DNA of 64,000 nt from an uncultured Candidatus Saccharibacteria bacterium. Lineage in GTDB: Bacteria; Patescibacteriota; Minisyncoccia; UBA6257; 1-14-0-10-44-23. The notes beneath the pieces are model-generated. The model did no database searches and was not told the DNA's origin. It saw nothing but the letters and a program-made list of their open reading frames with translations. The position numbers and the translations under genes are program-made. The stretch spans positions 11,105 to 75,104 of the forward strand of contig CAYWPI010000001.1 of the NCBI GenBank assembly GCA_964460325.1, written 5' to 3'. Below, one piece after another: positions 8,895 through 63,987 of this stretch; position 1 is the first letter of the stretch; every line of letters begins with the position of its first letter.

Positions 8895-9200
8895 TCATCC
8901 CAAGGGAAGGGCACGGAAGAGCTCGGGATTCGAAAGAGCCCAGAGCGTTCCCGCCATGCCCCTCTGCGTCCAGTGGGGACAGACCGGCTTGGAGGGCTCC
9001 TGGCGTATGAGTCGCGAGGAGGTGAACTCACTCTGACGGATCTCGTAGAGGGAAAAGACTCGCTCGGCTCTCCCGGGCTTCGCTTTCTCCGCAGTCCAGC
9101 GCGAAAGTGCGACTGCATCGGATTCAGCCTCGAATTCGATCCGGATTACCGCGGTGCACTTGCCACAGTGATCGATCATGAGCAGGTACTGCATTGGCAC
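8895..9200 (-). CDS. Hypothetical 101-aa protein, high-GC cassette a; possibly YciI-like or Cys-containing
   Basis: Canonical SD GGAGGTG 5 nt before the ATG and its own terminator. Local GC ~60% against a ~45% backbone. Confidence 0.5.
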   Translation of the reverse strand: MPMQYLLMIDHCGKCTAVIRIEFEAESDAVALSRWTAEKAKPGRAERVFSLYEIRQSEFTSSRLIRQEPSKPVCPHWTQRGMAGTLWALSNPELFRALPLG

Positions 9201-12962: not shown

Positions 12963-13031
12963 GCCTTCAGCATATCACAGGAGCCAAGTCGCGCATGCGC
13001 AACTTGGCTCCGATATTATACTTCCGCCGCT

Positions 13032-13448
13032 CTAACCGGCAGCGAGTTTGTACGCTCGTTCGCTAACGGCCTGCACCAGTCCTTCACCAACCTGGGATCG
13101 TTCGTATGCCATCTGGCATCCGCACATACAATATTCCCGCCTGACGGCCTCCGTGTCAGAGATGGCAATACGCAAGCAGTCGCGCCCATCCTCCGTATCG
13201 CGACGACACAGCTCCGAAACAAGTCGTAGTGGTGAAGCGCCCTGTACTGATCGCACCTTGTGATCATCGACAACCACAATGTCGCGCCGAGGATCGTGCA
13301 TGCAAAGCAAACGACCCCCTTCAACCGTATCGCTTTCCATAAAAACAAAGTGCTGTCGCGGGAAACGTACACCTAGCAATTCTTCGAGTACCTCACGGAA
13401 AGACTCGGTAAGCCCAATCCAGATGACCGTAATCGCCTTCTTGAGCAT
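13032..13448 (-). CDS. Hypothetical 138-aa protein, high-GC cassette b
   Basis: SD AAGGAGGA upstream of the ATG. High GC. C-terminal CMCGC motif. Confidence 0.45.
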   Translation of the reverse strand: MLKKAITVIWIGLTESFREVLEELLGVRFPRQHFVFMESDTVEGGRLLCMHDPRRDIVVVDDHKVRSVQGASPLRLVSELCRRDTEDGRDCLRIAISDTEAVRREYCMCGCQMAYERSQVGEGLVQAVSERAYKLAAG

Positions 13449-13539
13449 CTCATCCTCCTTGCTTGACGCAAAAAATCCACCGGGAACCGTGTTTGTAGAA
13501 ATACAAGCCTTTTACTAAAAAGTCAAGAAACGGATGGCT

Positions 13540-14058
13540 TTACACTCCCTGCGCCTTTGAGCCACGGGCGCGGCGAATCAGTTCGTCGCGCAGCTGTTCT
13601 GCCTCTGCGCGGGACAAAGCCGGAAGTCTTCCCTCGGCGTGCATACCCGATGTTCCTCGGCGGGTTACAAGGGCGCTTGCGCCGGCTGTTTGAATATGCA
13701 AATCGGAGAGCCCAAGAATGCGAGCCAAGATGCCACGATAGATATCCACATTCTGGATGCGCTCATAAGGAATAGTTACGTAACGCTTATAGATAACGCC
13801 TGATTCTTTCCGAAAGCCATTCTCAGTAAGTTCATAGAGAAAGTAACCATACGAAAGCTTCGCCCAGATCCAGCACAGCGCCAGAACGATAATCAGCATG
13901 GGCCAAAACAGATTGAGTGGAATGCTATAGCCTTGCTCCAAGGCCACGACCGCGACGTCGGCAAGTATCCAAAAACGGACAACCACTAAAAATAGTGTCC
14001 AGCGAAATGCCAGTCTTATGAAAAACAGCCAGAGCGCTTTCGGGTCAAGATGCTTCAT
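13540..14058 (-). CDS. Bacterial PH-domain membrane protein (YdbS/YdbT-like)
   Basis: Two transmembrane helices followed by a bPH_2-like domain. Start chosen at MKHLDPK. Confidence 0.55.
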   Translation of the reverse strand: MKHLDPKALWLFFIRLAFRWTLFLVVVRFWILADVAVVALEQGYSIPLNLFWPMLIIVLALCWIWAKLSYGYFLYELTENGFRKESGVIYKRYVTIPYERIQNVDIYRGILARILGLSDLHIQTAGASALVTRRGTSGMHAEGRLPALSRAEAEQLRDELIRRARGSKAQGV

Positions 14059-14082
14059 GATCTGTGATGTTATGTTTTTATT

Positions 14083-14162
14083 GTGCGGGATATTGAATTT
14101 AGTTCGAACCGTGTTCGCGGCGCCGCCCGCCACCGGCGCACGCGAAGGGCGAACCGGTCTTT
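14083..14162. repeat. IR-A left arm: 80-bp perfect inverted repeat
   Basis: Exact reverse complement of 15258-15337, compared by eye. Confidence 0.85.
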
Positions 14163-14265
14163 AACAATTTCAAGTTGTTTTTTGGCGGCAAATTCTTGAT
14201 TTGATTGTATCCTAATTTGCTGAAAAGAAAAGGAACCCTTAACGATCGCGTACTGCGATGGGTTC

Positions 14266-14670
14266 CTACGGGGGCGTTGCAGCCCCAGCTGAAGACGACA
14301 GAGATGGATTCAGTCGTCGGGTTCGGACGAGAGCGAGCAGCGTCAGTAGCTCTTGCGGAGCAACGTATCCACCAAGTTGCTCCACCATCAGTGCGGCCTT
14401 CTCGATGTCTTCCTTGCTGAACTGGCTGGGCGCTTCGGGTCGCAACTGCTTCGCGATGCCATGAAGAGCGCGAGCGTCTTCTTCTGTCTTCCCGCAAGCC
14501 CTTGCAATGGCCAGCAAGGTCTTCAGACGCGGCACGAGTGTGATCGTCTCCTCGATGCGCCGGATCTGCGAGATCGCGATCTTCGCCTTTTCGGCGAGTT
14601 GCTCGCGACTTAGACCTGCTTCCTTGCGCCAAGCCCGAACGGTCGCGCCGACACCTTGAACTTCGTTCAT
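14266..14670 (-). CDS. XRE-family HTH transcriptional regulator
   Basis: HTH signature LSREQLAEKAKIAISQIRRIE. High GC. Start overlaps the upstream ORF stop (ATGA). Confidence 0.6.
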   Translation of the reverse strand: MNEVQGVGATVRAWRKEAGLSREQLAEKAKIAISQIRRIEETITLVPRLKTLLAIARACGKTEEDARALHGIAKQLRPEAPSQFSKEDIEKAALMVEQLGGYVAPQELLTLLALVRTRRLNPSLSSSAGAATPP

Positions 14671-14850
14671 CCGCGTTTCTCCTGAATGAGCTCGTGAATG
14701 GCGCGGATGGACATCACGATCCAGAATCCGCCGACGCCACCGGCAATCGAAGGAACGATCTTGATTCCGATCGCGTACCCGATCGCAGCTACGGTCAGCA
14801 AGACATACGCACCGATCGTGAAGAGCATGGCTGCTTTAGCGGTTTCCATC
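14667..14850 (-). CDS. Small membrane protein (~60 aa)
   Basis: METAKAAMLFTIGAYVLLTVAAIGYAIG... SD AAGGAGGAG. Translationally coupled by TGATG/ATGA overlaps on both sides. Confidence 0.4.
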
Positions 14851-15093
14851 ACTCCTCCTTCTTCTCGTTCGGACGAACGATGATCATGCTCCCCCCGAAG
14901 CCCAGCTTCCATCCTAGGAGCCAAGCGATGATGAGGATCCCGATCGAGATCCCGATGCCCGGCAGGATCGCAGGACGCCCGACGGCCCACAATGGGACGC
15001 CGAAAGCTCCTGCCCACATCAGCACGAAGAAGATGCGGTAGACGACCGCCTCACGCGGACCGAGCTCGTGCACGGTCAAGTTGGCAGGTCCCA
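14850..15093 (-). CDS. Small membrane protein (~81 aa)
   Basis: MGPANLTVHELG... with two transmembrane segments. First gene of a three-gene minus-strand operon. Confidence 0.35.
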
Positions 15094-15257
15094 TGTGTAC
15101 TCCAAGTGCCACAATTGGCCTGCTGAATATGCCACATCTCAAAATAAAAAGCAAATATAAAACAAAAACAGCCCCTTTGGGCCGTTTCTCAAAAATGTTC
15201 TTTTCTTCTTTCCCTCTGATTCGAGCCGATGGATTTCCGGGCTCTTTGGCGGTTTTG

Positions 15258-15337
15258 AAAGACCGGTTCGCCCTTCGCGTGCGCCGGTGGCGGGCGGCGC
15301 CGCGAACACGGTTCGAACTAAATTCAATATCCCGCAC
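15258..15337. repeat. IR-A right arm
   Basis: Reverse complement of 14083-14162. Confidence 0.85.
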
Positions 15338-15406
15338 AAGTCAGAAGATGTCAACGCCTCGCGCCGACTTTGTCGGCGCTCGGCGAGCTGTTGGTACGGC
15401 GGTTTC
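15334..15406. repeat. IR-B left arm: 73-bp perfect inverted repeat, abutting IR-A
   Basis: Exact reverse complement of 16845-16917. Shares GCAC with the end of IR-A. Confidence 0.85.
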
Positions 15407-15449
15407 TCTTAGGGAAAGAAGAAAAGAACATTTTTGAGTTAAATCTCAT

Positions 15450-17255
15450 ATGAAATACATACTGTACGCAAGAAAATCAACAGAAGAAGACGACAGACAA
15501 GTCTTGAGTATTCAGGCGCAACTCGCAGAGTTGCGAGAATTTGCCGCCAAAGAACACCTTGAAATTGTTGCTTCCTTTCAGGAAGCCAAAACCGCCAAAG
15601 AGCCCGGGCGAATTAAATTCGCAGAAATGGTGGCAATGATTGAATCCAAGAAAGCAGACGGAATCATAAGCTGGCACCCCGATCGTCTTGCTCGCAATTC
15701 CGTAGATGGAGGCAAGATTATTCATTTGATCGATCGCGGCTTGATCAAGTCATTAAAATTTCCCACCTTCTGGTTTGAGGCCACCCCACAAGGTGTGTTC
15801 ATGCTCAATATCGCCTTTGGACAGAGTAAATATTTTGTAGATAATTTGCGAGAGAATGTGAAGCGGGGACTACGACAGAAGATCAGAAACGGCATCTGGC
15901 CTGGCTGGGCTCCGGTGGGGTATATTAATAATCCACGAACGCGAGATATTGATGTTGATAGTGAAAAAGCTCCAAAAGTGAAGAAGTTGTTTGAGATGTA
16001 CGCCACCGGAGCATACACACTAAGTTCTCTCGCAAATTGGTGCGTGGAAAATAATCTCAAGGGCAACAGGGAGAAGAAAATATCAATCAGCAATCTGCAG
16101 AGTATTCTACAAAATATTTTCTACGTTGGCCTCATGAGATATCGTGGGGAAATTTTCGAAGGCAAGCACGAGCCACTCATCTCAAAGAAACTTTTTGATG
16201 AAGTCCAAAAAGCGATGAAAAACCGAGGAAAACAGAAACACGTTCGTAAACATCACTTTGCTTTTCTTGGCCTACTCAAATGCGCTTCGTGCGGTTGCTC
16301 CATCACCGGCGAACGTCAGAAGGGTCACAACTATTATCGCTGCACCAAAAAGAAAGGCCCATGCCAAGAAAAGCATTATCTTCGAGAAGAAGATTTATTA
16401 GCTCAAATCAAAAGCATTCTTCAAAAAGTTTCTTTGGGAAGCCACGACACTGAAAGAGTTTTGGCGGCGCTCGCAGGCGAGGAGGCGGAGGCAAAAGAAT
16501 ACTCTCAAAATGAAGTAGGGTTATTAAAATCAAAACTGACAGAAATAGAAGCCAAACTCTCCCGCCTCCTCGACCTGTATCTTGCGAGCGAAATATCCCT
16601 TAGCAAAGAGGAGTTCGCCGCCAAAAAAGAAAGCCTTGTCTTGCAAAAGGCAGAATTAGCTCAGAAAATTAATGATATTGAGCAAAAAGGAGTGTCGTGG
16701 CTCGAACCGGCTCGTGAGTTCGTTCTATCCTTGAATCAAGCCGCGAAACTGCTTGAGAATGGGAACCCAGAATCATTGCCACCATTTCTCAAAGCCATCG
16801 GCTCGAACCACACCCTTCAAAACCGACAAGTCGGTTTTGAGCTGAAACCGCCGTACCAACAGCTCGCCGAGCGCCGACAAAGTCGGCGCGAGGCGTTGAC
16901 ATCTTCTGACTTGTGCCCGGGACAGGAGTCGAACCTGCATGCCTTGCGGCGCTACCACCTCAAGGTAGTGCGTCTGCCATTTCGCCACCCGGGCAAACTT
17001 GCATTAACAATCTCGACGCTTGCAATACAAGGTCGGGACTCCGACCCGGTCATAGCGTCGGATCTGACAACTAATAACTTACAACAAGCAACAAGAACTT
17101 TCAAATCAAAACCGCCCTTGCGGGCGGCAATGAGTTATTTTTCTTTTGTGTCAGCCTCTTTTGCTTCAGCCGGCTTGGTGGCTGCCTTTTTGTCGTTACC
17201 ACGCTCAGCAGACATCTTACGACGAATCGCCTTCCTGCTAATATCTCGGATGTAA
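15450..17255 (+). CDS. Large serine recombinase; the ORF has no in-frame stop and reads through IR-B and tRNA-Leu, so it may be a pseudogene or carry a non-native 3' end
   Basis: YARKST catalytic-serine motif at the N-terminus, resolvase domain, recombinase domain, zinc ribbon CASCGCS...YYRC and a coiled coil. The native end is probably near ~16845. Confidence 0.75.
   Translation: MKYILYARKSTEEDDRQVLSIQAQLAELREFAAKEHLEIVASFQEAKTAKEPGRIKFAEMVAMIESKKADGIISWHPDRLARNSVDGGKIIHLIDRGLIKSLKFPTFWFEATPQGVFMLNIAFGQSKYFVDNLRENVKRGLRQKIRNGIWPGWAPVGYINNPRTRDIDVDSEKAPKVKKLFEMYATGAYTLSSLANWCVENNLKGNREKKISISNLQSILQNIFYVGLMRYRGEIFEGKHEPLISKKLFDEVQKAMKNRGKQKHVRKHHFAFLGLLKCASCGCSITGERQKGHNYYRCTKKKGPCQEKHYLREEDLLAQIKSILQKVSLGSHDTERVLAALAGEEAEAKEYSQNEVGLLKSKLTEIEAKLSRLLDLYLASEISLSKEEFAAKKESLVLQKAELAQKINDIEQKGVSWLEPAREFVLSLNQAAKLLENGNPESLPPFLKAIGSNHTLQNRQVGFELKPPYQQLAERRQSRREALTSSDLCPGQESNLHALRRYHLKVVRLPFRHPGKLALTISTLAIQGRDSDPVIASDLTTNNLQQATRTFKSKPPLRAAMSYFSFVSASFASAGLVAAFLSLPRSADILRRIAFLLISRM
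16845..16917. repeat. IR-B right arm; its last 4 nt overlap the 3' end of tRNA-Leu
   Basis: Reverse complement of 15334-15406. Confidence 0.85.
16914..16994 (-). tRNA. tRNA-Leu(GAG)
   Basis: Manual fold: acceptor GCCCGGG, anticodon loop TTGAGGT, long variable arm, T-loop GGTTCGACTCC. Confidence 0.8.
17100..17128 (-). terminator. rplS terminator
   Basis: Hairpin CCGCCCTTGCGGGCGG followed by a T-run on the minus strand. Confidence 0.55.
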
Positions 17256-20834: not shown

Positions 20835-21575
20835 TCACTCAGCTTTCAGTTCAGCTAATGCCATTTTCAACTCGTCAGAAAGCTCACTGACGCCGACTAT
20901 CTTCTTACCCAACGGAGAAATAAACTCAATTTTTTTCGCATGCAAAAACTGACGCGTGAGCCCAGGCAAACTTCCTTTTTTTCCGTAAAGCTTATCTCCT
21001 ACAACAGCATGCCCTATTGAGGAAAAGTGCACTCTGATTTGATGAGTTCGCCCGGTTTTGGGCTGCACCTCTACCAAGGTCAACGCCTCTTCGCCAAAAC
21101 GATATCGACTCAAAACGCGATATTCCGTCATTGCTTCACGAGTCATCTTACCCCTGAAAACAGTGCGCTTTACTGAGCCGTCAATAATGCTTATGGGTTT
21201 ATTAATAGTGCCGGAATCGGTTTTCATCCTTCCCCATACCAGCGCGACATATGTCTTATGTATTCGTTCTCCGTTTTCCGCAGAAGAACCCCCTCCGGCA
21301 GAAAAAAGTTTCTTTAAATACAGAAACGCTTCTTGGGTTCTGGCAACAACCATCACGCCAGAAGTTTCGCGATCAAGCCGGTGCACAATGCCACCCCGTT
21401 GCGCGGGCGCATCGCCAACATATTTTATCTCGGGATAGCGCAAAGTAAGCCAATCTACTAACGTCTCTTCATTGTGCTTTGCCTCTCCCTTGTGATAAAT
21501 GCCATGGACAAGCCAGCCCGCCGGCTTATCGACAAGGAGCAAGTGCTGGTCTTCATAAAGAATGCGCGGAGTCAT
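20835..21575 (-). CDS. RluA-family pseudouridine synthase
   Basis: Catalytic motif HRLDRETSGVMVVA. Confidence 0.85.
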   Translation of the reverse strand: MTPRILYEDQHLLLVDKPAGWLVHGIYHKGEAKHNEETLVDWLTLRYPEIKYVGDAPAQRGGIVHRLDRETSGVMVVARTQEAFLYLKKLFSAGGGSSAENGERIHKTYVALVWGRMKTDSGTINKPISIIDGSVKRTVFRGKMTREAMTEYRVLSRYRFGEEALTLVEVQPKTGRTHQIRVHFSSIGHAVVGDKLYGKKGSLPGLTRQFLHAKKIEFISPLGKKIVGVSELSDELKMALAELKAE

Positions 21576-21603
21576 TATTACTTAAAATACTATTGCATCG
21601 CAT

Positions 21604-21640
21604 AAAATGAGTTGGGGGTCGGCGCCTGTGCACCGACCCC
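21604..21640 (-). terminator. Terminator of cassette d
   Basis: Hairpin GGGGTCGG...CCGACCCC followed by a T-run on the minus strand. Confidence 0.45.
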
Positions 21641-21657
21641 ACACACGAGCACCGCGT

Positions 21658-21990
21658 TTAGCTCGCCCGGCGAGCCAAACGCTTTTGCGCTCGACGAGAC
21701 TTTCGCTCCCGATGAAGCTTCCGCAACCGCACAAGCGCCCGGCGATGACGCTTCGCGCGCCGGTATCGCTTGCGAGGATCGCTCTTTTTCAGGGTCGCAG
21801 CCGGTGCCACGCGCCAATCGAAGAACCGCAACTTCCCCTGCTCGTATCGGGCATTGCCCTCCACGAGCTCATTCTTGGAAGGGAACCAGCCGCGTCGTTG
21901 GTCGATCAGCAGCGCCACGTCGCCACTTGGAACCAACTGCACAGTACCACTTGCTCCGTCGACCACTCGAGCCCACTGCCGTTGACTCAT
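21658..21990 (-). CDS. Hypothetical ~110-aa protein with an Arg/Lys-rich C-terminal tail, high-GC cassette d
   Basis: SD GGAGGTGG before MSQRQW. High GC. Own terminator. Confidence 0.4.
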   Translation of the reverse strand: MSQRQWARVVDGASGTVQLVPSGDVALLIDQRRGWFPSKNELVEGNARYEQGKLRFFDWRVAPAATLKKSDPRKRYRRAKRHRRALVRLRKLHRERKSRRAQKRLARRAS

Positions 21991-22087
21991 ACCACCTCCT
22001 TCATCTGGTATGCGTTCCCGTCGATCTGACGGAGTCACACCACCTCTTTTAAGTAATAGCAAAAGAAGAGCGGTCTGTAAATTATGG

Positions 22088-22253
22088 GGTGCGCAAAACT
22101 GGAAGAAATTACACTGCCGACCTTTTCAGGGTCAGCGCCAACAAATAATGCACTCCAGTAATTTGTGCGCATTACCGAAATCGAACCAGCGGTTTTTTCA
22201 ATGTTAAAGAACTCACTCAATCAAACCTGGCGACTTTCGTCCACTGAGCCCTG
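22088..22253 (-). other. tRNA-derived fragments or a disrupted tRNA, including a Phe-GAA-like anticodon arm, a D-loop-like GGCTCAGTGG and a T-loop-like GGTTCGATT
   Basis: Manual inspection only. No complete cloverleaf could be folded. The GCGCACA acceptor-like motif occurs three times. Confidence 0.3.
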
Positions 22254-22325
22254 TGCGCGCTGGAGGGATTGAACCTCCGACCTTTTCAATGTCAATGAAA
22301 CGCTCTACCACTGAGCTAAGCGCGC
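22254..22325 (-). tRNA. tRNA-Val(GAC)
   Basis: Manual fold: GCGCGCT acceptor, loop TTGACAT, T-arm GGAGGTTCAATCCCTCC. Confidence 0.8.
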
Positions 22326-23149: not shown

Positions 23150-23284
23150 AAATATAAGATACTAATATACTAATATGCACTAATAATACTAATAAATACG
23201 AATAAATCCAAGACTAACCGCAGATACGAAAGAAGTTAACAGTTGCAGTCTATTTCATCAGAGACTATAACGGGGTAGCACTCA

Positions 23285-23782
23285 CTAGCTCGAAAGGCCT
23301 ACAATAGTAATAAGAAGAATCGCAAAAGCAAAAATACACGGAACTACCACAAGCTGCATTTCTGTCCAAATAATTCCATAACCTCTTTGTATCATACCGA
23401 TCGCCCACGGAAGCAAAAGCAGTGCACCACTTTCAATGAGCCTTGCACTAGAAACTCTAGTGCGCGAATTCACTCCATCGCCCCAAAACCAAACGCCGAA
23501 AATATAAAATAAGACATAAAGTAATACTCCTAACAGGAGCAGAAAACCAATTATAGCAATAATCTTACCGACAATACCCGTTTTAATAACTCTTTTTTTC
23601 TCGGGTGCAATTCCATATGTCATTGAACTAGCCCCAAGTAATAGCAAAATCATTCCAAGAGGCACAAGGGGGACATTTCTCGACAAAATCGAAGCCGAGC
23701 CCTCTTCGTAAAGCGAGAAGGAGATGAAACCCAAAAGTACTATAATAAAACCAAGCAGAAAAAATAGTTTCCTTTTTGTCAT
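23285..23782 (-). CDS. Hypothetical membrane protein
   Basis: Multiple hydrophobic helices. Confidence 0.4.
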   Translation of the reverse strand: MTKRKLFFLLGFIIVLLGFISFSLYEEGSASILSRNVPLVPLGMILLLLGASSMTYGIAPEKKRVIKTGIVGKIIAIIGFLLLLGVLLYVLFYIFGVWFWGDGVNSRTRVSSARLIESGALLLLPWAIGMIQRGYGIIWTEMQLVVVPCIFAFAILLITIVGLSS

Positions 23783-24558
23783 GAATGTAATCGAAAGAAG
23801 TTCTCAAACAATTGAGCCACAACAATAGGACCCGTTCCGCCCGGGGTTGGCGTTACCAACTTTGTCTTCATCGCAATCGCTTTCGCATCCACATCCCCCG
23901 TTGTTTTTCCATCAAGCTGGCCATATCCAAAATCAACCACTACTGCGTTCGGCTTAATGTGCATTTCATTAATAAGATGTGGCACCCCCGTTCCTGTAAC
24001 CACCAAGTCAGCCTCGCGGATAACCGCCTCATCCAACTTTGCCTTGCCAAGCACTGTAAGCTTGATGACCTTATCCATGAGCCAGGCTGCGCAGGGGCGA
24101 CCAATCAGCATGCCCGGGCCAACCACCACCGCTCGCTTACTAGTAAGATCAAACCCCACTTCTTCAAGAATATGCTTAAGTGCTCCGACGGCTGGCGGCA
24201 ATACTTTGGTTGTTTCACCATTCAACACGTCAACATCTTTCTCAATACCAATGGCATTTAACACGGGCACGCGGTCATATTTTTTCGGCAAAGGAAGCTG
24301 AACAATAACCGCACCCACTGATGGGTCGGCAGAAATTCCCCGCACCTGGCGCTCAAGCTCGCCCTGACTAAGTGTTTCCGGCAAGATATGGAGTACAAAG
24401 CGCACACCGAGTTCTTTTGCCACTTTTTCTTTTTGCTTTAGAAAACTAAGCGACGCCTTATCCTCGCCAACCAAAATTGCTGCCAGCACCTTTGTGGGCG
24501 TTTTCCTGGTCTTAAGCTGCTCAATAATTTTTTTCGCAATAGCGTTTCCATCAATCAT
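23779..24558 (-). CDS. folD: Bifunctional methylenetetrahydrofolate dehydrogenase/cyclohydrolase
   Basis: N-terminal pattern MIDGNAIAKKI...AAILVGED and conserved FolD length (259 aa). Confidence 0.85.
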   Translation of the reverse strand: MIDGNAIAKKIIEQLKTRKTPTKVLAAILVGEDKASLSFLKQKEKVAKELGVRFVLHILPETLSQGELERQVRGISADPSVGAVIVQLPLPKKYDRVPVLNAIGIEKDVDVLNGETTKVLPPAVGALKHILEEVGFDLTSKRAVVVGPGMLIGRPCAAWLMDKVIKLTVLGKAKLDEAVIREADLVVTGTGVPHLINEMHIKPNAVVVDFGYGQLDGKTTGDVDAKAIAMKTKLVTPTPGGTGPIVVAQLFENFFRLHS

Positions 24559-24573
24559 ATCTTTAGAATATCA

Positions 24574-24909
24574 CTAAAGAACTTCGTTGATGATATAGCT
24601 TGCCACATAAAGTGCCGCGACAATGCAAGCCACCATAATAATATTTCTTTTTGAAAGCCTGTCGATAAATCGAGCTAACAGATAGTGAATGCCAAATATA
24701 TAGGCAAAAGGCAAAATAAACGCAAGCGGCGTTACCCACGGGGAGAGCAAAATCAGCCTGAACCAGGCAAAATTACTCATCAGCGGATTAAACACCCACT
24801 TGCAGCCAATAAAACACACATACCACGGCAGAGGCACGAAAAGAACGATGGCAACCGTCGTCAGCCACAACCCCTTGGGTTTCCTTTGAATAACTGAAGT
24901 ATTTTCCAT
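24574..24909 (-). CDS. Small membrane protein
   Basis: Hydrophobic 111-aa ORF. Confidence 0.35.
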   Translation of the reverse strand: MENTSVIQRKPKGLWLTTVAIVLFVPLPWYVCFIGCKWVFNPLMSNFAWFRLILLSPWVTPLAFILPFAYIFGIHYLLARFIDRLSKRNIIMVACIVAALYVASYIINEVL

Positions 24910-26130
24910 TTAATAAGGCAAAGGGAATTGCTTACACAATTTTACCACTTCTTTTTTGACTGACTCGGCCGGCTCTTTAAGATCAAACAAGTGATGCATA
25001 AACATTGCAATCAGCTTCATTTGTTTTTCTTTCATACCCCGACTAGTAACTGCCGGCGTGCCAATGCGAACCCCCGACGGCTTAAACGGCTTTTCATCGC
25101 CCGGCACCGAGTTGCGGTTGGCCACAATCCCCGCCTGTTCAAGCATCTGCTGAGCCGCCATGCCGTCTAAGCCCTTATTGCGCATGTCCACTACCAACAA
25201 GTGGCTGTCGGTTCCGCCAGAAACCAAATCAAACCCATATCCAGAAAGTGCCGCCTCAAGCGCCTTCGCGTTTTTCACAATCTGCTTTGCATAAGACCGA
25301 AAGGCCGACTTTTGCATCGCTTCGAACATCCAGGCAATAGCCGCCGTCTGATTATTATGCGGCCCACCCTGCAACCCCGGCATAATCGCCTTATCAATAA
25401 GCTTTGCCAACTCCTCGCCTTTAGTGAAAATAACTGCTCCACGAGGGCCGCGCATTGTTTTATGCGTAGTTGCCATCACCACGTCTGCATACGGAAACGG
25501 ACTGGGATATACGCCGCCGGCAATAAGCCCCGCCACGTGAGAAACGTCAGCAACCAATTTTGCGCCCACCGCATCGGCAATAGCTCGCATCTTTTTAAAA
25601 TCCAACAATCGGCTATATGAGGTGGTGCCCAAAATAATCATCGCTGGCTTATGCAGCTTTGCCAGTTGCGCCACTTCTGCATAATCAATAAGTCCGGTTT
25701 TAGGGCTCACGCCAAATTGCACCGACTTATAAAACGTTCCGGAAAAATTCACCGGATGCCCGTGTGTTAAGTGTCCGCCATCTGCCAGGCGCAATCCCAT
25801 TACCGTATCACCAGGCTTTGCCAGCGCAAAATAAATTGCCAAGTTCGCTGGTGAACCCGAATATGCCTGCACGTTGGCAAACCACTGGCCCTCCTTAAGC
25901 CCAAACACCTTCAAGCCCTCTTTCCGCGCAAGATTCTCAATCTCGTCGCAGAACTCGTTGCCCGGATAATATCGCCGACCCGGATAGCCTTCTGAATATT
26001 TATTAACGAGCGGACTGCCGAGGATTTTCAGCATCTCCGGATCAGCGACATTTTCCGATGGAATCAGATCAATCGTTTCCTGCTGGCGTTTTATCTCCTT
26101 CTTGATGAGTTCATTGAGCTTTTTTGACAT
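24910..26130 (-). CDS. glyA: Serine hydroxymethyltransferase
   Basis: PLP-lysine region VMATTHKTMRGPRG. Confidence 0.9.
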   Translation of the reverse strand: MSKKLNELIKKEIKRQQETIDLIPSENVADPEMLKILGSPLVNKYSEGYPGRRYYPGNEFCDEIENLARKEGLKVFGLKEGQWFANVQAYSGSPANLAIYFALAKPGDTVMGLRLADGGHLTHGHPVNFSGTFYKSVQFGVSPKTGLIDYAEVAQLAKLHKPAMIILGTTSYSRLLDFKKMRAIADAVGAKLVADVSHVAGLIAGGVYPSPFPYADVVMATTHKTMRGPRGAVIFTKGEELAKLIDKAIMPGLQGGPHNNQTAAIAWMFEAMQKSAFRSYAKQIVKNAKALEAALSGYGFDLVSGGTDSHLLVVDMRNKGLDGMAAQQMLEQAGIVANRNSVPGDEKPFKPSGVRIGTPAVTSRGMKEKQMKLIAMFMHHLFDLKEPAESVKKEVVKLCKQFPLPY

Positions 26131-26206
26131 GTTCCAATATTATCACAACTCGCTGTACTTCAAAATCTCACGTAACTTCTTACATCGTATGTAATAAGTT
26201 ACTACT

Positions 26207-26257
26207 TTAAAAAGAAACCGCCCCCAGGTCCGCGTTGGATTGCGCGGCTGGGGGCAG
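26207..26257 (-). terminator. Terminator of the patatin-like gene
   Basis: Hairpin GCCCCCAG...CTGGGGGC followed by TTTCTTTTT on the minus strand. Confidence 0.55.
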
Positions 26258-26287
26258 TATTCGCGATGGGTACCTCGACTCGTCAGC

Positions 26288-27595
26288 CTAGGTCCCATGT
26301 ATGGAGGCGTGGTCGTCTCCGTTGTTTCCCTTCTCTCTGCTGCACGAGAGTACGCGAGCGAGCAAGTCAGGCTTGAGCGGAGGCAGCGACGGCTCTTCCT
26401 CTTCCGGCGGCAGCCGCAGGTGGTACAGGTGAACGCTCAGCTCCCCCTGCAAACCAGCTTCCCGCAGCTTATTCGGATCAGTCGTGAAGGCGCCCACCTC
26501 AGTGTCCCGCCAGGGCAAAATTCCTACCTTGACATCGTCTCGAGCATGAGCTCGGAGAGTTGCGCTATCAAGACGGCTTCGAAGGTTGTGAACGCGCCGC
26601 CTGAGACGGCGCGGGAACGCTCCCATGAGGAACTGGACCACCAAGTACTCGATCGTCCGAAAGGACAGTCGACGTAGCCAGCCGCCAAGCCCCTCAACGC
26701 TACGCCACACGTAACGCCGTAGTCGTTGCTTTCGCAACGCCTTCTTGGAAGTCGAACCTCTCGGGCAGGTGTAGAGTAAGAAGAGCTCCACAATCCAAGA
26801 CGCCACCCTCCCGAGGTAACGGCTGGACGACCTAACCGGCAGCTTAGTCGTCACAATCCTGTTGGGAATAACCAGGATGTGAGTAGGCCGGAAAAGTCGG
26901 ATCACTCGCTCCACCGGGAAGAGATTTCCGAGGGCGCCATCGAAATACTTGCGCCCGTTGATCGTCACATACTTGCCGTACAGCGATCCCGGCAGTGCGG
27001 CACTAGCGATAATCGCAGCGATCGGATCTGGACACTCTTTCACATTCAGCACTACGGACTTGCCCTCCGGCGTGGTCACCTGGACATAGAACTCGCTCGT
27101 GGCGGCCAGGAGCGCCGCTTGGTCAAGCGGGGGGATGCCCAGGGTGGGGTCACCAAACCGGATGAGGCGCTCAAGCCAGTCGATATCGGCCGCCCCCTTA
27201 CGAAAAGGGCGGACGAACTTTTCTCTCTTAAGCCAGCAGCGAATTCGATGCCACAGATCCGCAAAGGAGCTGATGAAATCGTTACGCACACCCCGAAAGG
27301 GACTAATGAATCGACGCGTGGCAAGCGCATCCCAGTAGGAACGTAGCGCCACCTCCGACTGTCCGGCGAGAAAGTACGCCGCGGTGATGGCCCCGGTCGA
27401 GATTCCGAACACCACATCAAACGCCCGGTGTAAACCCATCCTGACCAGAGCTCTCGCCTGACCGGCGCCGAAGACACCGCGCATACCACCAGCAAGCACC
27501 ATGAGAACGCTCTTGAAGTAGCTAATGGTAGCAAGCCTATCACGACGGAGCAGGTCATAGATGACCTCATCCGTCTTGCTAGCCTTGTAAAGCAT
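26288..27595 (-). CDS. Patatin-like phospholipase, high-GC cassette e
   Basis: Oxyanion motif GGMRG (GGxRG), nucleophile elbow GISTGA (GxSxG) and catalytic DGA. ~60% GC. Start chosen at MLYKASK. Confidence 0.75.
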   Translation of the reverse strand: MLYKASKTDEVIYDLLRRDRLATISYFKSVLMVLAGGMRGVFGAGQARALVRMGLHRAFDVVFGISTGAITAAYFLAGQSEVALRSYWDALATRRFISPFRGVRNDFISSFADLWHRIRCWLKREKFVRPFRKGAADIDWLERLIRFGDPTLGIPPLDQAALLAATSEFYVQVTTPEGKSVVLNVKECPDPIAAIIASAALPGSLYGKYVTINGRKYFDGALGNLFPVERVIRLFRPTHILVIPNRIVTTKLPVRSSSRYLGRVASWIVELFLLYTCPRGSTSKKALRKQRLRRYVWRSVEGLGGWLRRLSFRTIEYLVVQFLMGAFPRRLRRRVHNLRSRLDSATLRAHARDDVKVGILPWRDTEVGAFTTDPNKLREAGLQGELSVHLYHLRLPPEEEEPSLPPLKPDLLARVLSCSREKGNNGDDHASIHGT

Positions 27596-27873
27596 AAGGC
27601 CCCCAAAACGGAAAAGGAATTTCGTCGAGCCTGGCAACGAGCCAGCTCGAACTATCCTTACCCTGCAACAAGGCCTAGGGATAGTCAAGACGCCAGGCTA
27701 AGCTAGGCCGGGCATGTATCACTTCCTATCGTTGGTGCGTGTGGATCAAAGTCAACAGACATTGATGGGTGGCGGTCAACTAACCATAATCCAGGCGCCA
27801 CCCGGGGACGGAATGAAATTCCTTCCACGCAATATGAATTAAAGTTTGACCCTTTACGGGCCAAACTTTACTG

Positions 27874-27945
27874 TGCGTGTGGAAGGAATCGAACCTTCGA
27901 CCTTTTCATTATCAGTGAAATGCTCTACCACTGAGCTACACACGC
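27874..27945 (-). tRNA. tRNA-Ile(GAT)
   Basis: Manual fold: GCGTGTG acceptor, loop CTGATAA, T-arm GAAGGTTCGATTCCTTC. Confidence 0.8.
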
Positions 27946-28057
27946 AATATTTACTGTAGAGCATTGAAATGCTCTTCCGGGGTGAGTTACCGAATTATAG
28001 TTTTTTGAACCTCACCCGTCGAGACCTGCTGGCCTCGACCCACTGAGCTACACACGC
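27946..28057 (-). repeat. Upstream tRNA module 1: duplicated tRNA-Ile 5' fragment (18 nt) plus three hairpins (GTCGAG...CTCGAC; GGGTGAG...CTCACCC; CGGAAGAGC...GCTCTAC)
   Basis: Direct comparison with 63694-63803, which has the same architecture and conserved GTCGAGGCCA, ATAATTC and CGGAAGAGC motifs. Confidence 0.6.
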
Positions 28058-35085: not shown

Positions 35086-35246
35086 CACTTCGAAAAAGTC
35101 AAAGAGTTATAAGAGATCAGAAGCATCAGCGATGATTGACTCTCCTAACATTACCCTTGACATATAACTGATATTATGATATATAATGTAATAAATCCAA
35201 GCACGACTTTTGGATGGAATCAAACCGTACCTTTGAGGAGGACGAC

Positions 35247-35645
35247 ATGGCAGAGCTCAGAGAAAAAGTCGACGAAAACCCTCAGCGAAGGGCGCTGATG
35301 GACACTCTCGATCGGATCCGTGGACGCGCCCAGTCGCAGTTCGCCAACCCGCTCACGATCGAGCACTACCAACCAGACCCCAGGGAATGGTTTCCGGGGC
35401 ACCACCCATTCTTCTTCATCGCGGAGGTTCGCACGAAGTACTGGCTCGGCATCATCCCGCGCAAGCAGCGCTGGAATCTGTTCGCCATCTATCCGGGGTT
35501 CGCCGGCAGTGCGTACGGACTGAGGGAGATCGACTGCGCCGTATACAATCGCTCCCTGCTCGAGATCGTCAGGGAGGAGGTGCAGAAGTACGCAGACGCC
35601 TTCCAGGCGACTACCATCAACCTCAAGCAGGACTTCGTCTGCTAA
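35247..35645 (+). CDS. Hypothetical 132-aa protein, high-GC cassette f
   Basis: SD GAGGAGG before ATGGCAGAG. High GC. Own terminator. Confidence 0.4.
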   Translation: MAELREKVDENPQRRALMDTLDRIRGRAQSQFANPLTIEHYQPDPREWFPGHHPFFFIAEVRTKYWLGIIPRKQRWNLFAIYPGFAGSAYGLREIDCAVYNRSLLEIVREEVQKYADAFQATTINLKQDFVC

Positions 35646-35666
35646 CACACGCGAACGTCGAATCTA

Positions 35667-35707
35667 TCTGGGTCGGTCCGTAACAGGATCGACCCAGATT
35701 TCTTTTC
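35667..35707 (+). terminator. Terminator of cassette f
   Basis: Hairpin TCTGGGTCG...CGACCCAGA followed by TTTCTTTTC. Confidence 0.6.
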
Positions 35708-35878
35708 TATAAAGAATGATTTGTCACTGAGACTAAGATTTGCTTAAATCTAATGTGTTCATTATGAGAATCCTAAGTTGAGCGCCTATATGAAGCTTAA
35801 AAAAAATTTCTTATTTTATCTGACCGTTGTCATTATGCCACTTATCTTTCTGGCGCTTCTTATCGCCATTATCTTTGT

Positions 35879-49578: not shown

Positions 49579-50223
49579 ATGTCAGAGAAGATGAGCAGTT
49601 GGCAACTCCCGATCTTCACGTTCGTTATCCTGGCAATCGGAATCATGCTCGGCGTGATGATCACCGCCACCGAGTACAATCCGAACGCTCCCAAGCGGTT
49701 CACCCCCGGCGCCAAGCCCGTGCCGACCACTGCGACAGACTACGGCGCGTTCCTGATCGCAGATTATGACGAGCAGGGGCCCGGCAAACCGTCGTGGCAC
49801 CGCGCTCGCGTGGCCGGCGTGCCAGCGTGGACGCACGAGGAGGCAGACAACCACTTCAGGCGCGACGATCCGAACGTGATGATCCTCGAGGAAGAATGGG
49901 TAAGACGCTTTGGCTACCAAGCAGAGCTCAAGGATATCAAGGCTGCGCCATCGTGCTGTATCCCGAATGGGAAGCTCGTCGACGAGAACAGCCGAGACTT
50001 CATCATCGAATTTGAGGTTCGCCCGTCCATCGAAGAGGCGGCCCCTGCTCCAGAATACGTCGGAGACGCACCGCCTGCAGAATTCCGTGAGGTCGGAACT
50101 GGCAAAACACTGAATCCGATCGAGGAGCTCGAAGAGAAATTGAGGAGCGAGGGGTGGACAATCACCCGCAATCCCCCCGACGATTCCGAGAGTGCCGACT
50201 CAACAGCCGAAGATGGGCCCTAA
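49579..50223 (+). CDS. Hypothetical membrane-anchored 214-aa protein, high-GC cassette g
   Basis: SD GAAGGAG. Single N-terminal transmembrane segment. High GC. Own terminator. Preceded by a ~200-nt extremely AT-rich tract. Confidence 0.45.
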   Translation: MSEKMSSWQLPIFTFVILAIGIMLGVMITATEYNPNAPKRFTPGAKPVPTTATDYGAFLIADYDEQGPGKPSWHRARVAGVPAWTHEEADNHFRRDDPNVMILEEEWVRRFGYQAELKDIKAAPSCCIPNGKLVDENSRDFIIEFEVRPSIEEAAPAPEYVGDAPPAEFREVGTGKTLNPIEELEEKLRSEGWTITRNPPDDSESADSTAEDGP

Positions 50224-63396: not shown

Positions 63397-63677
63397 GCCG
63401 ATGTAGCTCAGCTGGTAGAGCAACTCCATGGTGGCTCGCAAAGCCCGCCCATTACGTAAGTAATTACGTAATGAATCCCGAATAACGGTTAATATCCCAA
63501 CAAAGTCAGGGCAAGATCCTTCGGCTTCGCTCAGGACAAGACCGTAGCGTCAATTGACGCTCGAACGACTGACAAGGGCTCCGATGCTTGAGATGCGGAG
63601 AAGATACAGTCTAGCCCTTTATGTAAATAGAGGTGTAAGCGAAGGAGTAGGTCGCCGGTTCAATTCCGGCCATCGGC
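63397..63677 (+). tRNA. tRNA interrupted by a group I intron; tentatively tRNA-Thr(GGT) if the splice site is between positions 36 and 37
   Basis: 5' exon GCCGATGTAGCTCAGCTGGTAGAGCAACTCCATGGT. 3' exon AAGGAGTAGGTCGCCGGTTCAATTCCGGCCATCGGCT. The exons fold into a cloverleaf. Anticodon assignment is uncertain. Confidence 0.6.
63433..63640 (+). other. Group I intron (~208 nt, no ORF)
   Basis: P-like GACCGTAGCGTCAATTG, R-like CGAACGACTGACAAGG, S-like AAGATACAGTCTAG (P7 pairing GACTG/CAGTC). 5' exon ends in U and the intron ends in G. Confidence 0.55.
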
Positions 63678-63693
63678 TCACAATTAAATAGCA

Positions 63694-63803
63694 GCTACCA
63701 CCTTAGCTCAGTTGGGTCGAGGCCACCAGGCCGAGACGGGCGAACCGCCTGAGCGTCATAATTCAAAGTTCGCCCCGGAAGAGCTTGCTCTACCGACGAT
63801 ATT
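63694..63803 (+). repeat. Upstream tRNA module 2: duplicated 18-nt 5' fragment of tRNA-Thr(TGT) plus conserved hairpins
   Basis: CCACCTTAGCTCAGTTGG, then GTCGAGGCCACCAGGCCGAGAC, then GGGCGAAC...GTTCGCCC, then CGGAAGAGCTTGCTCTAC. Same organisation as 27946-28057. Confidence 0.6.
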
Positions 63804-63876
63804 GCCACCTTAGCTCAGTTGGTAGAGCAACACTTTTGTAAAGTGAAGGTCCCCGGTTCAAGTCCGGGAGGTGGCT
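63804..63876 (+). tRNA. tRNA-Thr(TGT)
   Basis: Manual fold: GCCACCT acceptor, loop TTTGTAA, T-arm CCCGGTTCAAGTCCGGG. Confidence 0.8.
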
Positions 63877-63965
63877 CAAATGATCTTGAACCGGAAACCC
63901 GGTTGCCGCTCAAGTGGCGGCATTGCGATTTCTAAGTGCTCAAAATCTCGCACAGAAATCGGGAA

Positions 63966-63987
63966 CAAGTCCGGGAGGTGGCTCAAA
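63966..63987 (+). repeat. 22-nt direct repeat of the tRNA-Thr(TGT) 3' end (CAAGTCCGGGAGGTGGCTCAAA)
   Basis: Identical to 63859-63880. Separated from the tRNA by ~85 nt of hairpin-rich sequence. Confidence 0.7.

What the first reader, a model, noticed from the sequence alone, without database searches (positions are those of the whole stretch)
26135..27873. Patatin-like phospholipase island beside tRNA-Ile, with tRNA-end scars
A 435-aa patatin-like phospholipase (GGxRG, GxSxG, DGA motifs) with ~60% GC and its own terminator sits between glyA and the 3' end of tRNA-Ile(GAT). Patatin-like phospholipases are effectors in CBASS and other antiphage systems. No cyclase or sensor partner is adjacent, so this would be a stand-alone or orphan effector. 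The 278-nt GC-rich untranslated region upstream contains an 11-nt direct copy (GTGCGTGTGGA, ~27736) and an inverted partial copy (~27815-27830) of the tRNA-Ile 3' end. This pattern is consistent with past integration or excision events.
Basis: partly seen in the sequence, partly recalled or inferred. Interest (0 to 1): 0.6.

Follow-up and report, generated by a model that had tools for sequence, protein, structure and literature searches.

The report
Fast-evolving patatin lipase beside tRNA-Ile
A catalytically intact patatin-type lipase gene sits between tRNA-Ile and glyA in a Patescibacteria genome, but it is an old, patchily kept and unusually fast-diverging resident of that slot, not a freshly integrated antiphage island, and the tRNA "scars" beside it are decayed or displaced copies of the tRNA gene, a pattern seen at many tRNA genes in this lineage.

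Summary
A 435-aa patatin ORF (26288-27595, minus strand) has intact GGxRG, GxSxG and DGA motifs, 58.6% GC and its own terminator. The 11-nt direct and inverted copies of the tRNA-Ile 3' end are real and non-random.

No CBASS cyclase or other defence partner was found in the 64 kb, and defence-effector profiles match only the first ~50 residues.

The gene is not a recent island. Divergent homologues with the same conserved leader (TTGACT-N16-GCAGGGTAAGGrTAGTTCGAGC plus a hairpin) occupy the same tRNA-Ile/glyA slot in three related genomes. Slot contents across the clade are ordered subsets of one array: patatin-HAD-Vut1-CofE-glyA. This points to differential loss; the close relative L108 has lost the gene.

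The coding sequence is only 27-36% identical among these genomes, while glyA is 70-93% identical.

The 11-nt "scar" does not bracket the patatin gene. It is the end of a decayed tRNA-Ile copy, which is conserved upstream of the patatin homologue in L113. A larger partial copy lies upstream of the tRNA and carries a structured 64-nt insert.

Such collinear self-copies flank many tRNAs in this clade. In two relatives a GIY-YIG nuclease gene lies inside them.

The parts
26288..27595 (-). Patatin-like lipid acyl hydrolase CDS (435 aa) with Ser66/Asp219 dyad and GGMRG oxyanion motif. It has lineage-specific insertions at about aa 105-135 and 250-310 and a C-terminal tail.
26209..26257 (-). Intrinsic-terminator-like hairpin (GCCCCCAG...CUGGGGGC) followed by a U-rich tract, downstream of the patatin stop codon.
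   Evidence: The function is inferred.
27621..27688 (-). Conserved patatin leader. TTGACT lies at 27683-27688. After 16 nt comes GCAGGGTAAGGATAGTTCGAGC at 27645-27666, then the hairpin TCGAGC...GCTCGA. A GGGGG Shine-Dalgarno-like run lies at 27600-27604.
   Evidence: The same module lies upstream of the patatin homologues in L110, L111, L112 and L113, and nowhere else in about 1 Mb of fetched loci.
27733..27830 (-). Decayed tRNA-Ile copy (tRNA-like element). It starts with GCGTG (5' acceptor), followed by a T-arm-like hairpin that contains the 'inverted' 11-mer at 27818-27828. Two inserted hairpins follow. It ends with TCCACACGCACCA at 27733-27745, which contains the 'direct' 11-mer at 27735-27745.
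   Evidence: It aligns with the region upstream of the L113 patatin homologue (74% mean column identity over the whole alignment, higher over this element), where tRNA-Ile positions 21-35 including the anticodon survive. Its 3' end matches the L112 tRNA-Ile end with encoded CCA at 14 of 14 positions.
27840..27870 (-). 13-bp hairpin directly after tRNA-Ile. It may be a tRNA terminator or processing hairpin.
27873..27945 (-). Functional tRNA-Ile(GAT). CCA is not encoded.
   Evidence: 81.5 bits.
27946..28057 (-). Upstream partial tRNA-Ile copy with an insert. The copy of positions 1-18 lies at 28040-28057. A 64-nt two-hairpin insert ('U1') lies at 27976-28039 and carries a promoter-like TCGACG-17-TATAAT (28017-28022 and 27994-27999). 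The copy of positions 20-30 lies at 27965-27975 and forms a third hairpin that ends at 27958. A 12-nt leader follows.
   Evidence: The module is 90% identical in L108 with compensatory stem changes. The same insert occurs at tRNA-Thr (window 63704-63788) and at tRNA-Val of L008.

Best explanation
The gene encodes a stand-alone, probably cytoplasmic, patatin-fold serine-aspartate lipid acyl hydrolase. It belongs to a Patescibacteria-wide family of proteins of about 310 aa, and within that family to a small subfamily specific to this Harrisonbacteria-like clade.

The subfamily is a long-standing but dispensable resident of the slot between tRNA-Ile and glyA. The ancestral array was tRNA-Ile, patatin, HAD hydrolase, Vut1/YhhQ transporter, CofE-like ligase, glyA. 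Different lineages kept different ordered subsets. This genome kept only the patatin, and its close relative L108 lost all four genes.

The gene has its own conserved leader and its own terminator. Its protein sequence diverges far faster than its neighbours while keeping the catalytic residues. It is therefore an accessory enzyme under relaxed or diversifying selection. The likely role is breaking down or remodelling phospholipids (inferred), not acting as the effector of a cyclic-nucleotide defence system.

The tRNA-end 'scars' do not mark its integration. They are what is left of partial or decayed copies of the tRNA-Ile gene on both sides of the working gene. This architecture recurs at many tRNA genes in this clade and comes from duplications of, or insertions into, tRNA genes.

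Shown: fold, motifs, synteny, leader conservation, repeat statistics. Inferred: enzymatic activity, physiological role, direction of the evolutionary events.
For: Family and fold:
- Pfam Patatin hit with all three motifs invariant.
- AF2 model with pLDDT 82. Foldseek matches CapE, CapV, PlpD and patatin at probability 1.0, but with TM 0.37-0.46 (normalised by query length) and 11-16% identity.
- 1569 homologues at E<=1e-3. The best are 35-45% identical proteins of about 310 aa; those that carry a source name are from Patescibacteria MAGs, and the ones looked up sit in housekeeping contexts.

No defence link:
-.

Synteny:
- topA-dprA-p174-p117-tRNA-Ile-[slot]-glyA-folD-prx is conserved in more than 12 genomes.
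- L112 carries patatin-HAD-Vut1-CofE. The other genomes carry ordered subsets of this array.

Common origin of the slot patatins:
- A neighbour-joining clade of WIN, L110pat, P0129 and P0087 appears in 96 of 100 bootstraps.
- A 22-nt leader motif plus hairpin lies upstream of all four, with a compensatory change in L113.
- Ser66 and Asp219 are invariant in all four.
- GC is 0.56-0.59 in all four.

Divergence between WIN and L112:
- glyA 93%, prx 91%, folD 88%, DprA 72%, p174 67%, patatin 27%.

Scars:
- The tRNA-like element is shared with L113.
- The 3' piece equals the L112 tRNA end plus CCA.
- The upstream module is shared with L108, which lacks the patatin.
- Clade-wide polarity among 50 tRNAs, counting copies of 12 nt or more: 6 copies of the 5' half lie upstream and 10 copies of the 3' half lie downstream. 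None lies on the wrong side and one is on the reverse strand.
Against: - In this window the gene is a strong compositional outlier (GC3 z about 3.9).
- Two other GC-rich ORFs directly 3' of tRNA-Val and tRNA-Leu(CAA) are absent from L108. Recent import of this particular allele therefore cannot be excluded.
- 27% identity against 93% for glyA is hard to reach by vertical divergence alone.
- The gene tree (WIN outside L110 plus L112) disagrees with the glyA similarities.
- Grouping of divergent sequences by neighbour joining can be a long-branch artefact.
- All relatives are MAG or metagenome contigs. Absence elsewhere in their genomes was not checked.
- No experiment addresses activity or role. 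Fast evolution would also fit a conflict function such as defence or attack.
Confidence: 0.55

Rival explanations
1. Allele replacement. The slot and its leader are ancestral, but the coding sequence now present in this genome was imported recently from a GC-richer member of the same clade. The route would be homologous recombination (transformation), using the conserved leader or tRNA-Ile on one side and glyA on the other as anchors.
For: - GC3 is 0.68 against 0.50 for the genome, whereas the homologues are not outliers in the GC-richer relatives L110 and L112.
- The upstream non-coding DNA aligns well with L113 (74% mean column identity) while the proteins are 29% identical.
- The gene tree and the glyA similarities disagree.
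- DprA is present next door.
- Other GC-rich ORFs lie beside tRNAs and are absent from L108.
Against: - No donor with a closely similar coding sequence exists among 1.84 billion representative proteins. The best hit other than the gene itself has E=3e-31 and about 40% identity.
- All four slot alleles are mutually 27-36% identical, so no recent exchange is visible.
- The high GC could be intrinsic to the gene, which has 11.5% Arg.
Confidence: 0.25
2. The gene is an orphan antiphage effector (CBASS-CapV-like or a single-gene phospholipase defence) carried on an island that integrated at the 3' end of tRNA-Ile and left att-like repeats.
For: - The top structural neighbours include CapE and CapV.
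- There are weak PADLOC and NCBIfam effector hits.
- The distribution is patchy and the protein evolves very fast.
- The position is tRNA-adjacent. A homologue in Uhrbacteria also lies 64 nt from a tRNA-Arg 3' end.
Against: - Profile hits cover only the shared catalytic N-terminus. The NCBIfam score is 23 bits against a cutoff of 400.
- PlpD and plant patatin score almost the same in Foldseek.
- There is no cyclase, sensor, integrase or recombinase in the slot.
- The direct repeat does not enclose the gene.
- Syntenic homologues with a shared leader exist in three relatives.
- No relatives were found in phage records beyond a 26% match.
Confidence: 0.1
3. RNA-coupled module. The tRNA-like element directly upstream is not junk but a functional structured RNA. 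It could be a processing signal for RNase P or RNase Z, a decoy, or an RNA antitoxin-like regulator that controls the patatin.
For: - The 277-nt leader folds far better than shuffles (z=-4.6) into a cloverleaf-like four-way junction ending in ACCA.
- The element is better conserved with L113 than the protein is.
- A decayed tRNA-Ile copy also precedes the L110 homologue.
Against: - L112 has no such element, only the intact tRNA and a terminator hairpin.
- The L110 copy is not homologous in detail.
- There is no Rfam match.
- tRNA-derived sequence is structured by descent.
Confidence: 0.07

Closest known systems
Bacterial patatin-like phospholipases (Pfam PF01734; solved examples PlpD 5fqu/5fya and plant patatin 1oxw)
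   Same: Same alpha/beta/alpha fold in the AF2 model. Same GGxRG oxyanion motif, GxSxG serine and DGA aspartate.
   Different: - Only 11-16% identity to solved structures.
- No secretion or POTRA domain as in PlpD.
- Belongs to a Patescibacteria family of about 310 aa, with two extra helical, Arg-rich insertions and a C-terminal tail in this copy.
CBASS phospholipase effectors CapV / CapE (9iom, 8zr9, 9jeh)
   Same: Patatin catalytic core. These are the top Foldseek hits (E about 1e-7).
   Different: - No CD-NTase nearby.
- Profile matches are restricted to residues 30-80.
- TM-score is only 0.41-0.46 for the apo and cGAMP-bound entries named here.
- Homologues sit among housekeeping genes.
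tRNA gene fragments left by integrative elements (attL/attR; Williams 2002, as cited in PMC9897764)
   Same: Exact direct copies of the end of a tRNA gene lying near the intact gene.
   Different: - Copies lie on both sides in collinear order and only 20-360 nt away.
- No integrase or cargo lies between a copy and its tRNA.
- Copies often carry hairpin inserts.
- In two relatives a GIY-YIG gene lies between the copy and the tRNA, not an integrase gene.
Group I introns and homing endonucleases in Patescibacteria tRNA genes (PMC13011429)
   Same: The same phylum shows frequent interruption of tRNA genes in the anticodon loop. This window also holds an intron-containing tRNA-Thr(GGT).
   Different: The inserts around tRNA-Ile are too short to be ribozymes, give no Intron_gpI match, and leave an intact tRNA beside a displaced fragment rather than a spliced gene.

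Membership tests
Patatin-like phospholipase (PF01734) | Profile match above the curated threshold | tested here: met
   70.9 bits against a cutoff of 27.7; E=2e-19; residues 35-230.
Patatin-like phospholipase (PF01734) | Oxyanion GGxR/KG, nucleophile GxSxG and catalytic Asp in DGA/G | tested here: met
   G36-G-M-R-G40, G64-x-S66-x-G68 and D219-G220-A. G36, G40, S66, G68, D219 and G220 are invariant in 30 sequences.
Patatin-like phospholipase (PF01734) | Patatin alpha/beta/alpha fold | tested here: met
   AF2 pLDDT 82 and pTM 0.79. Foldseek probability 1.0 to CapE, CapV, PlpD and patatin.
Patatin-like phospholipase (PF01734) | Lipid acyl-hydrolase activity | not testable with these tools
   Needs an enzyme assay.
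CBASS effector CapV/CapE | Encoded next to a CD-NTase cyclase (operon partner) | tested here: not met
   No cyclase family among 55 ORFs of the 64-kb window. The ten nearest ORFs give only DprA matching ShosA and PsyrA.
CBASS effector CapV/CapE | Full-length match to effector profiles | tested here: not met
   The PADLOC phospholipase effector models match residues 30-80 only (E=1e-5 to 0.016).
CBASS effector CapV/CapE | Activation by a cyclic oligonucleotide | not testable with these tools
   Biochemical property.
Single-gene antiphage phospholipase (NCBIfam NF053870) | Equivalog score at or above the cutoff | tested here: not met
   23 bits against a cutoff of 400.
tRNA-integrated genomic island | Integrase or recombinase gene inside the segment | tested here: not met
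   Only the patatin ORF lies between tRNA-Ile and glyA.
tRNA-integrated genomic island | Direct repeats of the tRNA end that bracket the cargo | tested here: not met
   The 11-nt repeat (27735-27745) lies between the tRNA and the gene. No further exact copy of 9 nt or more of the tRNA 3' end lies between the patatin stop codon and glyA.
tRNA-integrated genomic island | Absent from the same site in close relatives | tested here: inconclusive
   Absent in L108 and L106 and in the GTDB representative genomes with this synteny (the loci fetched). A divergent homologue with the same leader is present in L112, L110/L111 and L113.
tRNA-integrated genomic island | Atypical base composition | tested here: met
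   GC 0.586 and GC3 0.679 against 0.484 and 0.498 for the window. Homologues have the same GC in their own genomes.

The most novel reading that the evidence does not exclude
The partial tRNA copies may be footprints of an undescribed way of invading tRNA genes. Small elements would insert into a tRNA gene and bring, or regenerate, a replacement copy of the displaced part. The essential gene would stay intact in the middle, and the displaced 5' and 3' pieces would remain outside it. The candidate elements are the 64-nt structured 'U1' module with its own promoter-like site, and cassettes that carry an 80-aa GIY-YIG nuclease gene placed 8-10 nt in front of the intact tRNA. This would be a third strategy for harmless insertion into essential genes, beside splicing (introns, inteins) and integrase att duplication. 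It would make the flanks of tRNA genes the main sites of genome flux in these reduced genomes.
Probability: 0.25. Interest if true: 0.7.

Novelty: new member of a known kind. Interest (0 to 1): 0.42.

Why it matters
For the patatin gene:
- Patescibacteria are thought to depend on host lipids (my own knowledge, not tested here). A catalytically intact lipase that is dispensable, confined to one syntenic slot and diverging about ten times faster than its neighbours is a candidate for host-lipid processing or for a conflict function.
- Its conserved leader gives a handle for studying regulation in an uncultivated group.

For annotation:
- The case shows that "patatin next to a tRNA, high GC, short tRNA repeats" is not enough to call a defence island. 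Comparison with relatives reversed that reading.

For the tRNA genes:
- The polar self-copies are frequent in this clade. They come with a conserved structured insert, and in two relatives with GIY-YIG genes.
- If this reflects an active mechanism, it would explain why both flanks of tRNA genes differ even between close relatives, and it would add a new class of tRNA-targeting elements.

Tried and rejected
- Word-indexed homologue searches with the protein and with the family alignment returned almost only the protein itself. The exhaustive HMMER search was needed.
- An exact-pattern metagenome scan for the junction of the outer copy and U1 found nothing.
- A viral scan for the start of U1 gave 23 hits at chance level. 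None continued into the module.
- tblastn against phage records gave only a 26% patatin match in an Acinetobacter record.
- Rfam gave no family for the leader or for U1. It gave no group I intron in the roughly 300-nt insert of L085 or in L072, L083 and L098. 'Degenerate group I intron' was therefore dropped as an explanation for the inserts.
- The three GC-rich tRNA-adjacent islets of the window share no sequence. A common vehicle could not be shown.
- The 20-nt palindrome CCTGCCTGCCGGCAGGCAGG is a dispersed intergenic repeat of relatives. It is not specific to tRNA flanks and is absent from the window.
- Simple tandem duplication was rejected for L011 because the sequence upstream of the 5' copy does not repeat the tRNA leader. 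It does fit L006, which has a 114-nt tandem unit.
- My first conclusion after searches was 'insertion hot spot, patatin unique to this genome'. Searches overturned it.
- Look-ups of an L076 ORF and of P0156 failed. The source assembly remains unnamed.
Full report
**1. What is in the sequence**

The finding's coordinates hold a 435-aa ORF on the minus strand (26288-27595). Upstream of it, in gene orientation, lies tRNA-Ile(GAT) at 27873-27945. Downstream lies glyA at 24910-26130.

- The ORF matches Pfam Patatin (70.9 bits).
- In an alignment with 29 homologues, the GGxRG, GxSxG (Ser66) and DGA (Asp219) motifs fall in invariant columns.
- The ATG start agrees with the family N-terminus.
- A GC-rich hairpin with a U-tract follows the stop codon.
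- CDS GC is 0.586 and GC3 is 0.679. The other long ORFs have GC 0.484+/-0.027 and GC3 0.498+/-0.047.
- The 11-nt direct copy (27735-27745) and the 11-nt inverted copy (27818-27828) of the tRNA 3' end exist. Together they never arise in 2000 dinucleotide shuffles of the leader.

**2. Organism and synteny**

glyA relatives identify a Patescibacteria lineage labelled Harrisonbacteria or Paceibacterota. The order topA-dprA-p174-p117-tRNA-Ile-[variable]-glyA-folD-prx-tRNA-Val is conserved in more than a dozen genomes.

The stretch between tRNA-Ile and glyA ranges from 46 to 2550 bp and holds different genes. At first this looked like an insertion hot spot with a patatin unique to this genome.

Closer relatives, found through DprA, changed that view:

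- L108 has glyA 92% identical to the window. It has no patatin and carries a 97-aa ORF in a 630-bp gap. Homology with the window stops exactly at the tRNA 3' end and resumes at the glyA start codon.
- L112 has glyA 93% identical to the window. Its slot reads tRNA-Ile, a 403-aa patatin homologue, HAD, Vut1, CofE-like, glyA.
- L110 and L111 (glyA 71%) carry a patatin homologue plus HAD.
- L106 carries HAD only.
- L006 and L008 carry Vut1 (L006 also an unrelated 175-aa ORF) and CofE.
- L009 and L011 carry CofE.
- L002 and L005 carry nothing.

Most of these are ordered subsets of the L112 array. L004, L007, L012, L019, L033 and L108 hold other genes in the slot, and L009 carries an extra ORF beside CofE. 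The subset pattern is what differential loss from a larger ancestral array predicts.

**3. The slot patatins share an origin but are extremely divergent**

- The exhaustive HMMER search found 1569 homologues. The best are about 310 aa and 35-45% identical. Those with source names come from Patescibacteria MAGs, and they lie among housekeeping genes.
- In a neighbour-joining tree the window protein groups with the L110 protein (P0068), the L112 protein (P0129) and P0087 (L113) in 96 of 100 bootstraps.
- Independent support comes from the DNA upstream. All four genes are preceded by TTGACT-N16-GCAGGGTAAGG(A/G)TAGTTCGAGC and a hairpin, with a compensatory change in L113. This motif occurs nowhere else in about 1 Mb of fetched loci.
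- Ser66 and Asp219 are kept in all four.
- GC is 0.56-0.59 in all four.
- The proteins are nevertheless only 27-36% identical to each other. Between the window and L112 the neighbours are much closer: glyA 93%, prx 91%, folD 88%, DprA 72%, p174 67%.

The gene is therefore an old accessory resident of the slot. It evolves far faster than its neighbours, or its alleles are exchanged within the clade. In this genome it is a GC3 outlier, but in the GC-richer relatives L110 and L112 it is not. That difference keeps recent allele import open as a rival.

**4. Function**

- The AF2 model (pLDDT 82) is a patatin fold. CapE, CapV, PlpD and plant patatin all match at probability 1.0, with TM 0.37-0.46 (normalised by query length) and 11-16% identity. 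Structure therefore does not discriminate between them.
- PADLOC and NCBIfam defence-effector models match only residues 30-80.
- No cyclase or other partner appears among 55 ORFs of the window. The only defence-library hit near the gene is housekeeping DprA matching ShosA and PsyrA.
- There is no link to phage records.

I conclude that it is a stand-alone lipid acyl hydrolase. Its physiological role is inferred. It could be lipid scavenging or remodelling in a bacterium thought to lack lipid synthesis (my own knowledge). The fast evolution also allows a conflict role.

**5. The tRNA 'scars'**

*Downstream of the tRNA.* A 13-bp hairpin comes first. It is followed by a 98-nt element (27733-27830) that begins with GCGTG, contains a T-arm-like hairpin and two inserted hairpins, and ends with TCCACACGCACCA.

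- It folds into a cloverleaf-like junction.
- It aligns with the DNA upstream of the L113 patatin (74% mean column identity over the whole alignment, higher over this element). There, tRNA-Ile positions 21-35 (with the anticodon GAT) and a T arm survive.
- Its 3' end is 14/14 identical to the L112 tRNA-Ile end, including the encoded CCA.
- It is a decayed copy of tRNA-Ile, and it is older than the split between the window genome and L113.
- The patatin lies outside the repeat pair.

*Upstream of the tRNA.* A copy of positions 1-30 is interrupted after position 18 by a 64-nt two-hairpin insert that I call U1. U1 carries a promoter-like TCGACG-17-TATAAT.

- The whole module is 90% identical in L108.
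- In L108 the outer copy carries the same acceptor-stem substitution as the working tRNA (GCGGGTG), and hairpin 2 shows two compensatory pairs.
- The same insert sits in the same D-loop position of partial copies of tRNA-Thr (window 63704-63788) and of tRNA-Val in L008. Seven of 23 pairs covary.
- L108 has the module but no patatin, so these upstream copies are unrelated to how the patatin arrived.

**6. A clade-wide pattern**

Among 50 tRNA genes in the related loci, copies of 12 nt or more of the 5' half lie upstream in 6 cases and copies of the 3' half lie downstream in 10. None lies on the wrong side and one is on the reverse strand. Examples:

- L072: positions 1-33, then the intact tRNA, then positions 38-73. 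A 22-bp inverted repeat encloses the intact tRNA.
- L011: positions 1-30 and 47-73.
- L008 tRNA-Val: the downstream copy of positions 36-73 is 38/38 identical to the working tRNA.
- L019 tRNA-Leu: three tandem 3' copies.
- L019 (tRNA-Leu) and L083 (tRNA-Ile): an 80-aa GIY-YIG ORF (Pfam E=4e-16 and 3e-12) fills the space between the displaced 5' piece and the intact tRNA. These are the only two such ORFs in 1.03 Mb, and both end 8-10 nt before a tRNA.

Known explanations cover this only in part. Integrase att scars (PMC9897764) do not predict copies on both sides, such short distances, or GIY-YIG genes. Group I introns (PMC13011429) are not detected in these inserts.

Two candidate mechanisms remain:
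- tandem tRNA duplication followed by deletion of the inner ends and accumulation of hairpin inserts;
- insertion of small elements, some driven by a homing nuclease, that regenerate the displaced part of the tRNA.

I could not decide between them.

**7. Verdict**

- The antiphage and recent-island interpretation is largely not supported.
- The gene is a new, fast-evolving member of a known enzyme family in a conserved but erodible slot.
- The most interesting by-product is the polar self-copy architecture of tRNA genes in this lineage.

Noticed in passing
window 63397-63679 (+): Unannotated intron-containing tRNA-Thr(GGT). Exon 1 is 63397-63432, the intron is about 209 nt (63433-63641), and exon 2 is 63642-63679. 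The intron lies after the anticodon (36/37) and gives a weak Rfam group I intron match at 63445-63633 (18.6 bits, E=0.033). ARAGORN calls the spliced sequence a tRNA.
   Followed up: partly
window 63698-63984 (+): tRNA-Thr(TGT) at 63804-63877 is nested between an 18-nt copy of its 5' end (63698-63715, followed by the same U1 insert as at tRNA-Ile) and a 19-nt copy of its 3' end (63966-63984). Each copy lies 88 nt from the gene.
   Followed up: partly
window 21562-22325 (-): tRNA-Val(GAC) is followed by two degenerate copies of itself and then by a GC-rich (0.61) block with overlapping ORFs on both strands (21612-22052 + and 21658-22062 -). These ORFs have no Pfam or PADLOC match. The block is not homologous to the corresponding region of L108.
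   Followed up: partly
window 35087-35877 (+): A GC-rich ORF of 143 aa (35214-35645; GC 0.59, GC3 0.79) with no family match lies directly 3' of tRNA-Leu(CAA). L108 has only 186 nt at this place.
   Followed up: partly
window 13000-17255: A large serine recombinase ORF (15450-17255 +; Resolvase, Recombinase and Zn-ribbon domains) has a 3' part that runs antisense through tRNA-Leu(GAG) at 16913-16994 (-). A GC-rich block (0.52-0.57) of ORFs without family matches, apart from one with a bacterial PH domain, lies beside it. This may be a real integrated element.
   Followed up: no
window 8895-9194 (-) and 49579-50223 (+): Two further GC-rich ORFs (GC 0.59-0.60, GC3 0.72) without family matches. 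The second lies 256 nt from tRNA-Ala(GGC).
   Followed up: no
window 23175-24583: folD and a 165-aa membrane ORF are present here and folD is present in L112. This stretch has no counterpart between prx and the 111-aa ORF/glyA in the close relative L108.
   Followed up: no
L019 786-1094 (-) and L083 8381-8623 (-): Small GIY-YIG nuclease ORFs lie between a displaced 5' fragment of a tRNA gene (ending in the anticodon arm) and the intact copy of the same tRNA. They are on the same strand as the tRNA and end 8-10 nt before it.
   Followed up: partly
L005, L008, L011, L019, L042 (several sites each): A perfect 20-nt palindrome, CCTGCCTGCCGGCAGGCAGG, is dispersed in intergenic DNA of several Patescibacteria relatives. 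It also occurs inside decayed tRNA copies. It is absent from the window and resembles a REP- or MITE-like element.
   Followed up: no
L085 (about 3981 nt; upstream of tRNA-Ile): A second tRNA-Ile copy is split between positions 39 and 43 by an insert of about 300 nt closed by a 20-bp terminal inverted repeat. Rfam finds no intron in it.
   Followed up: partly
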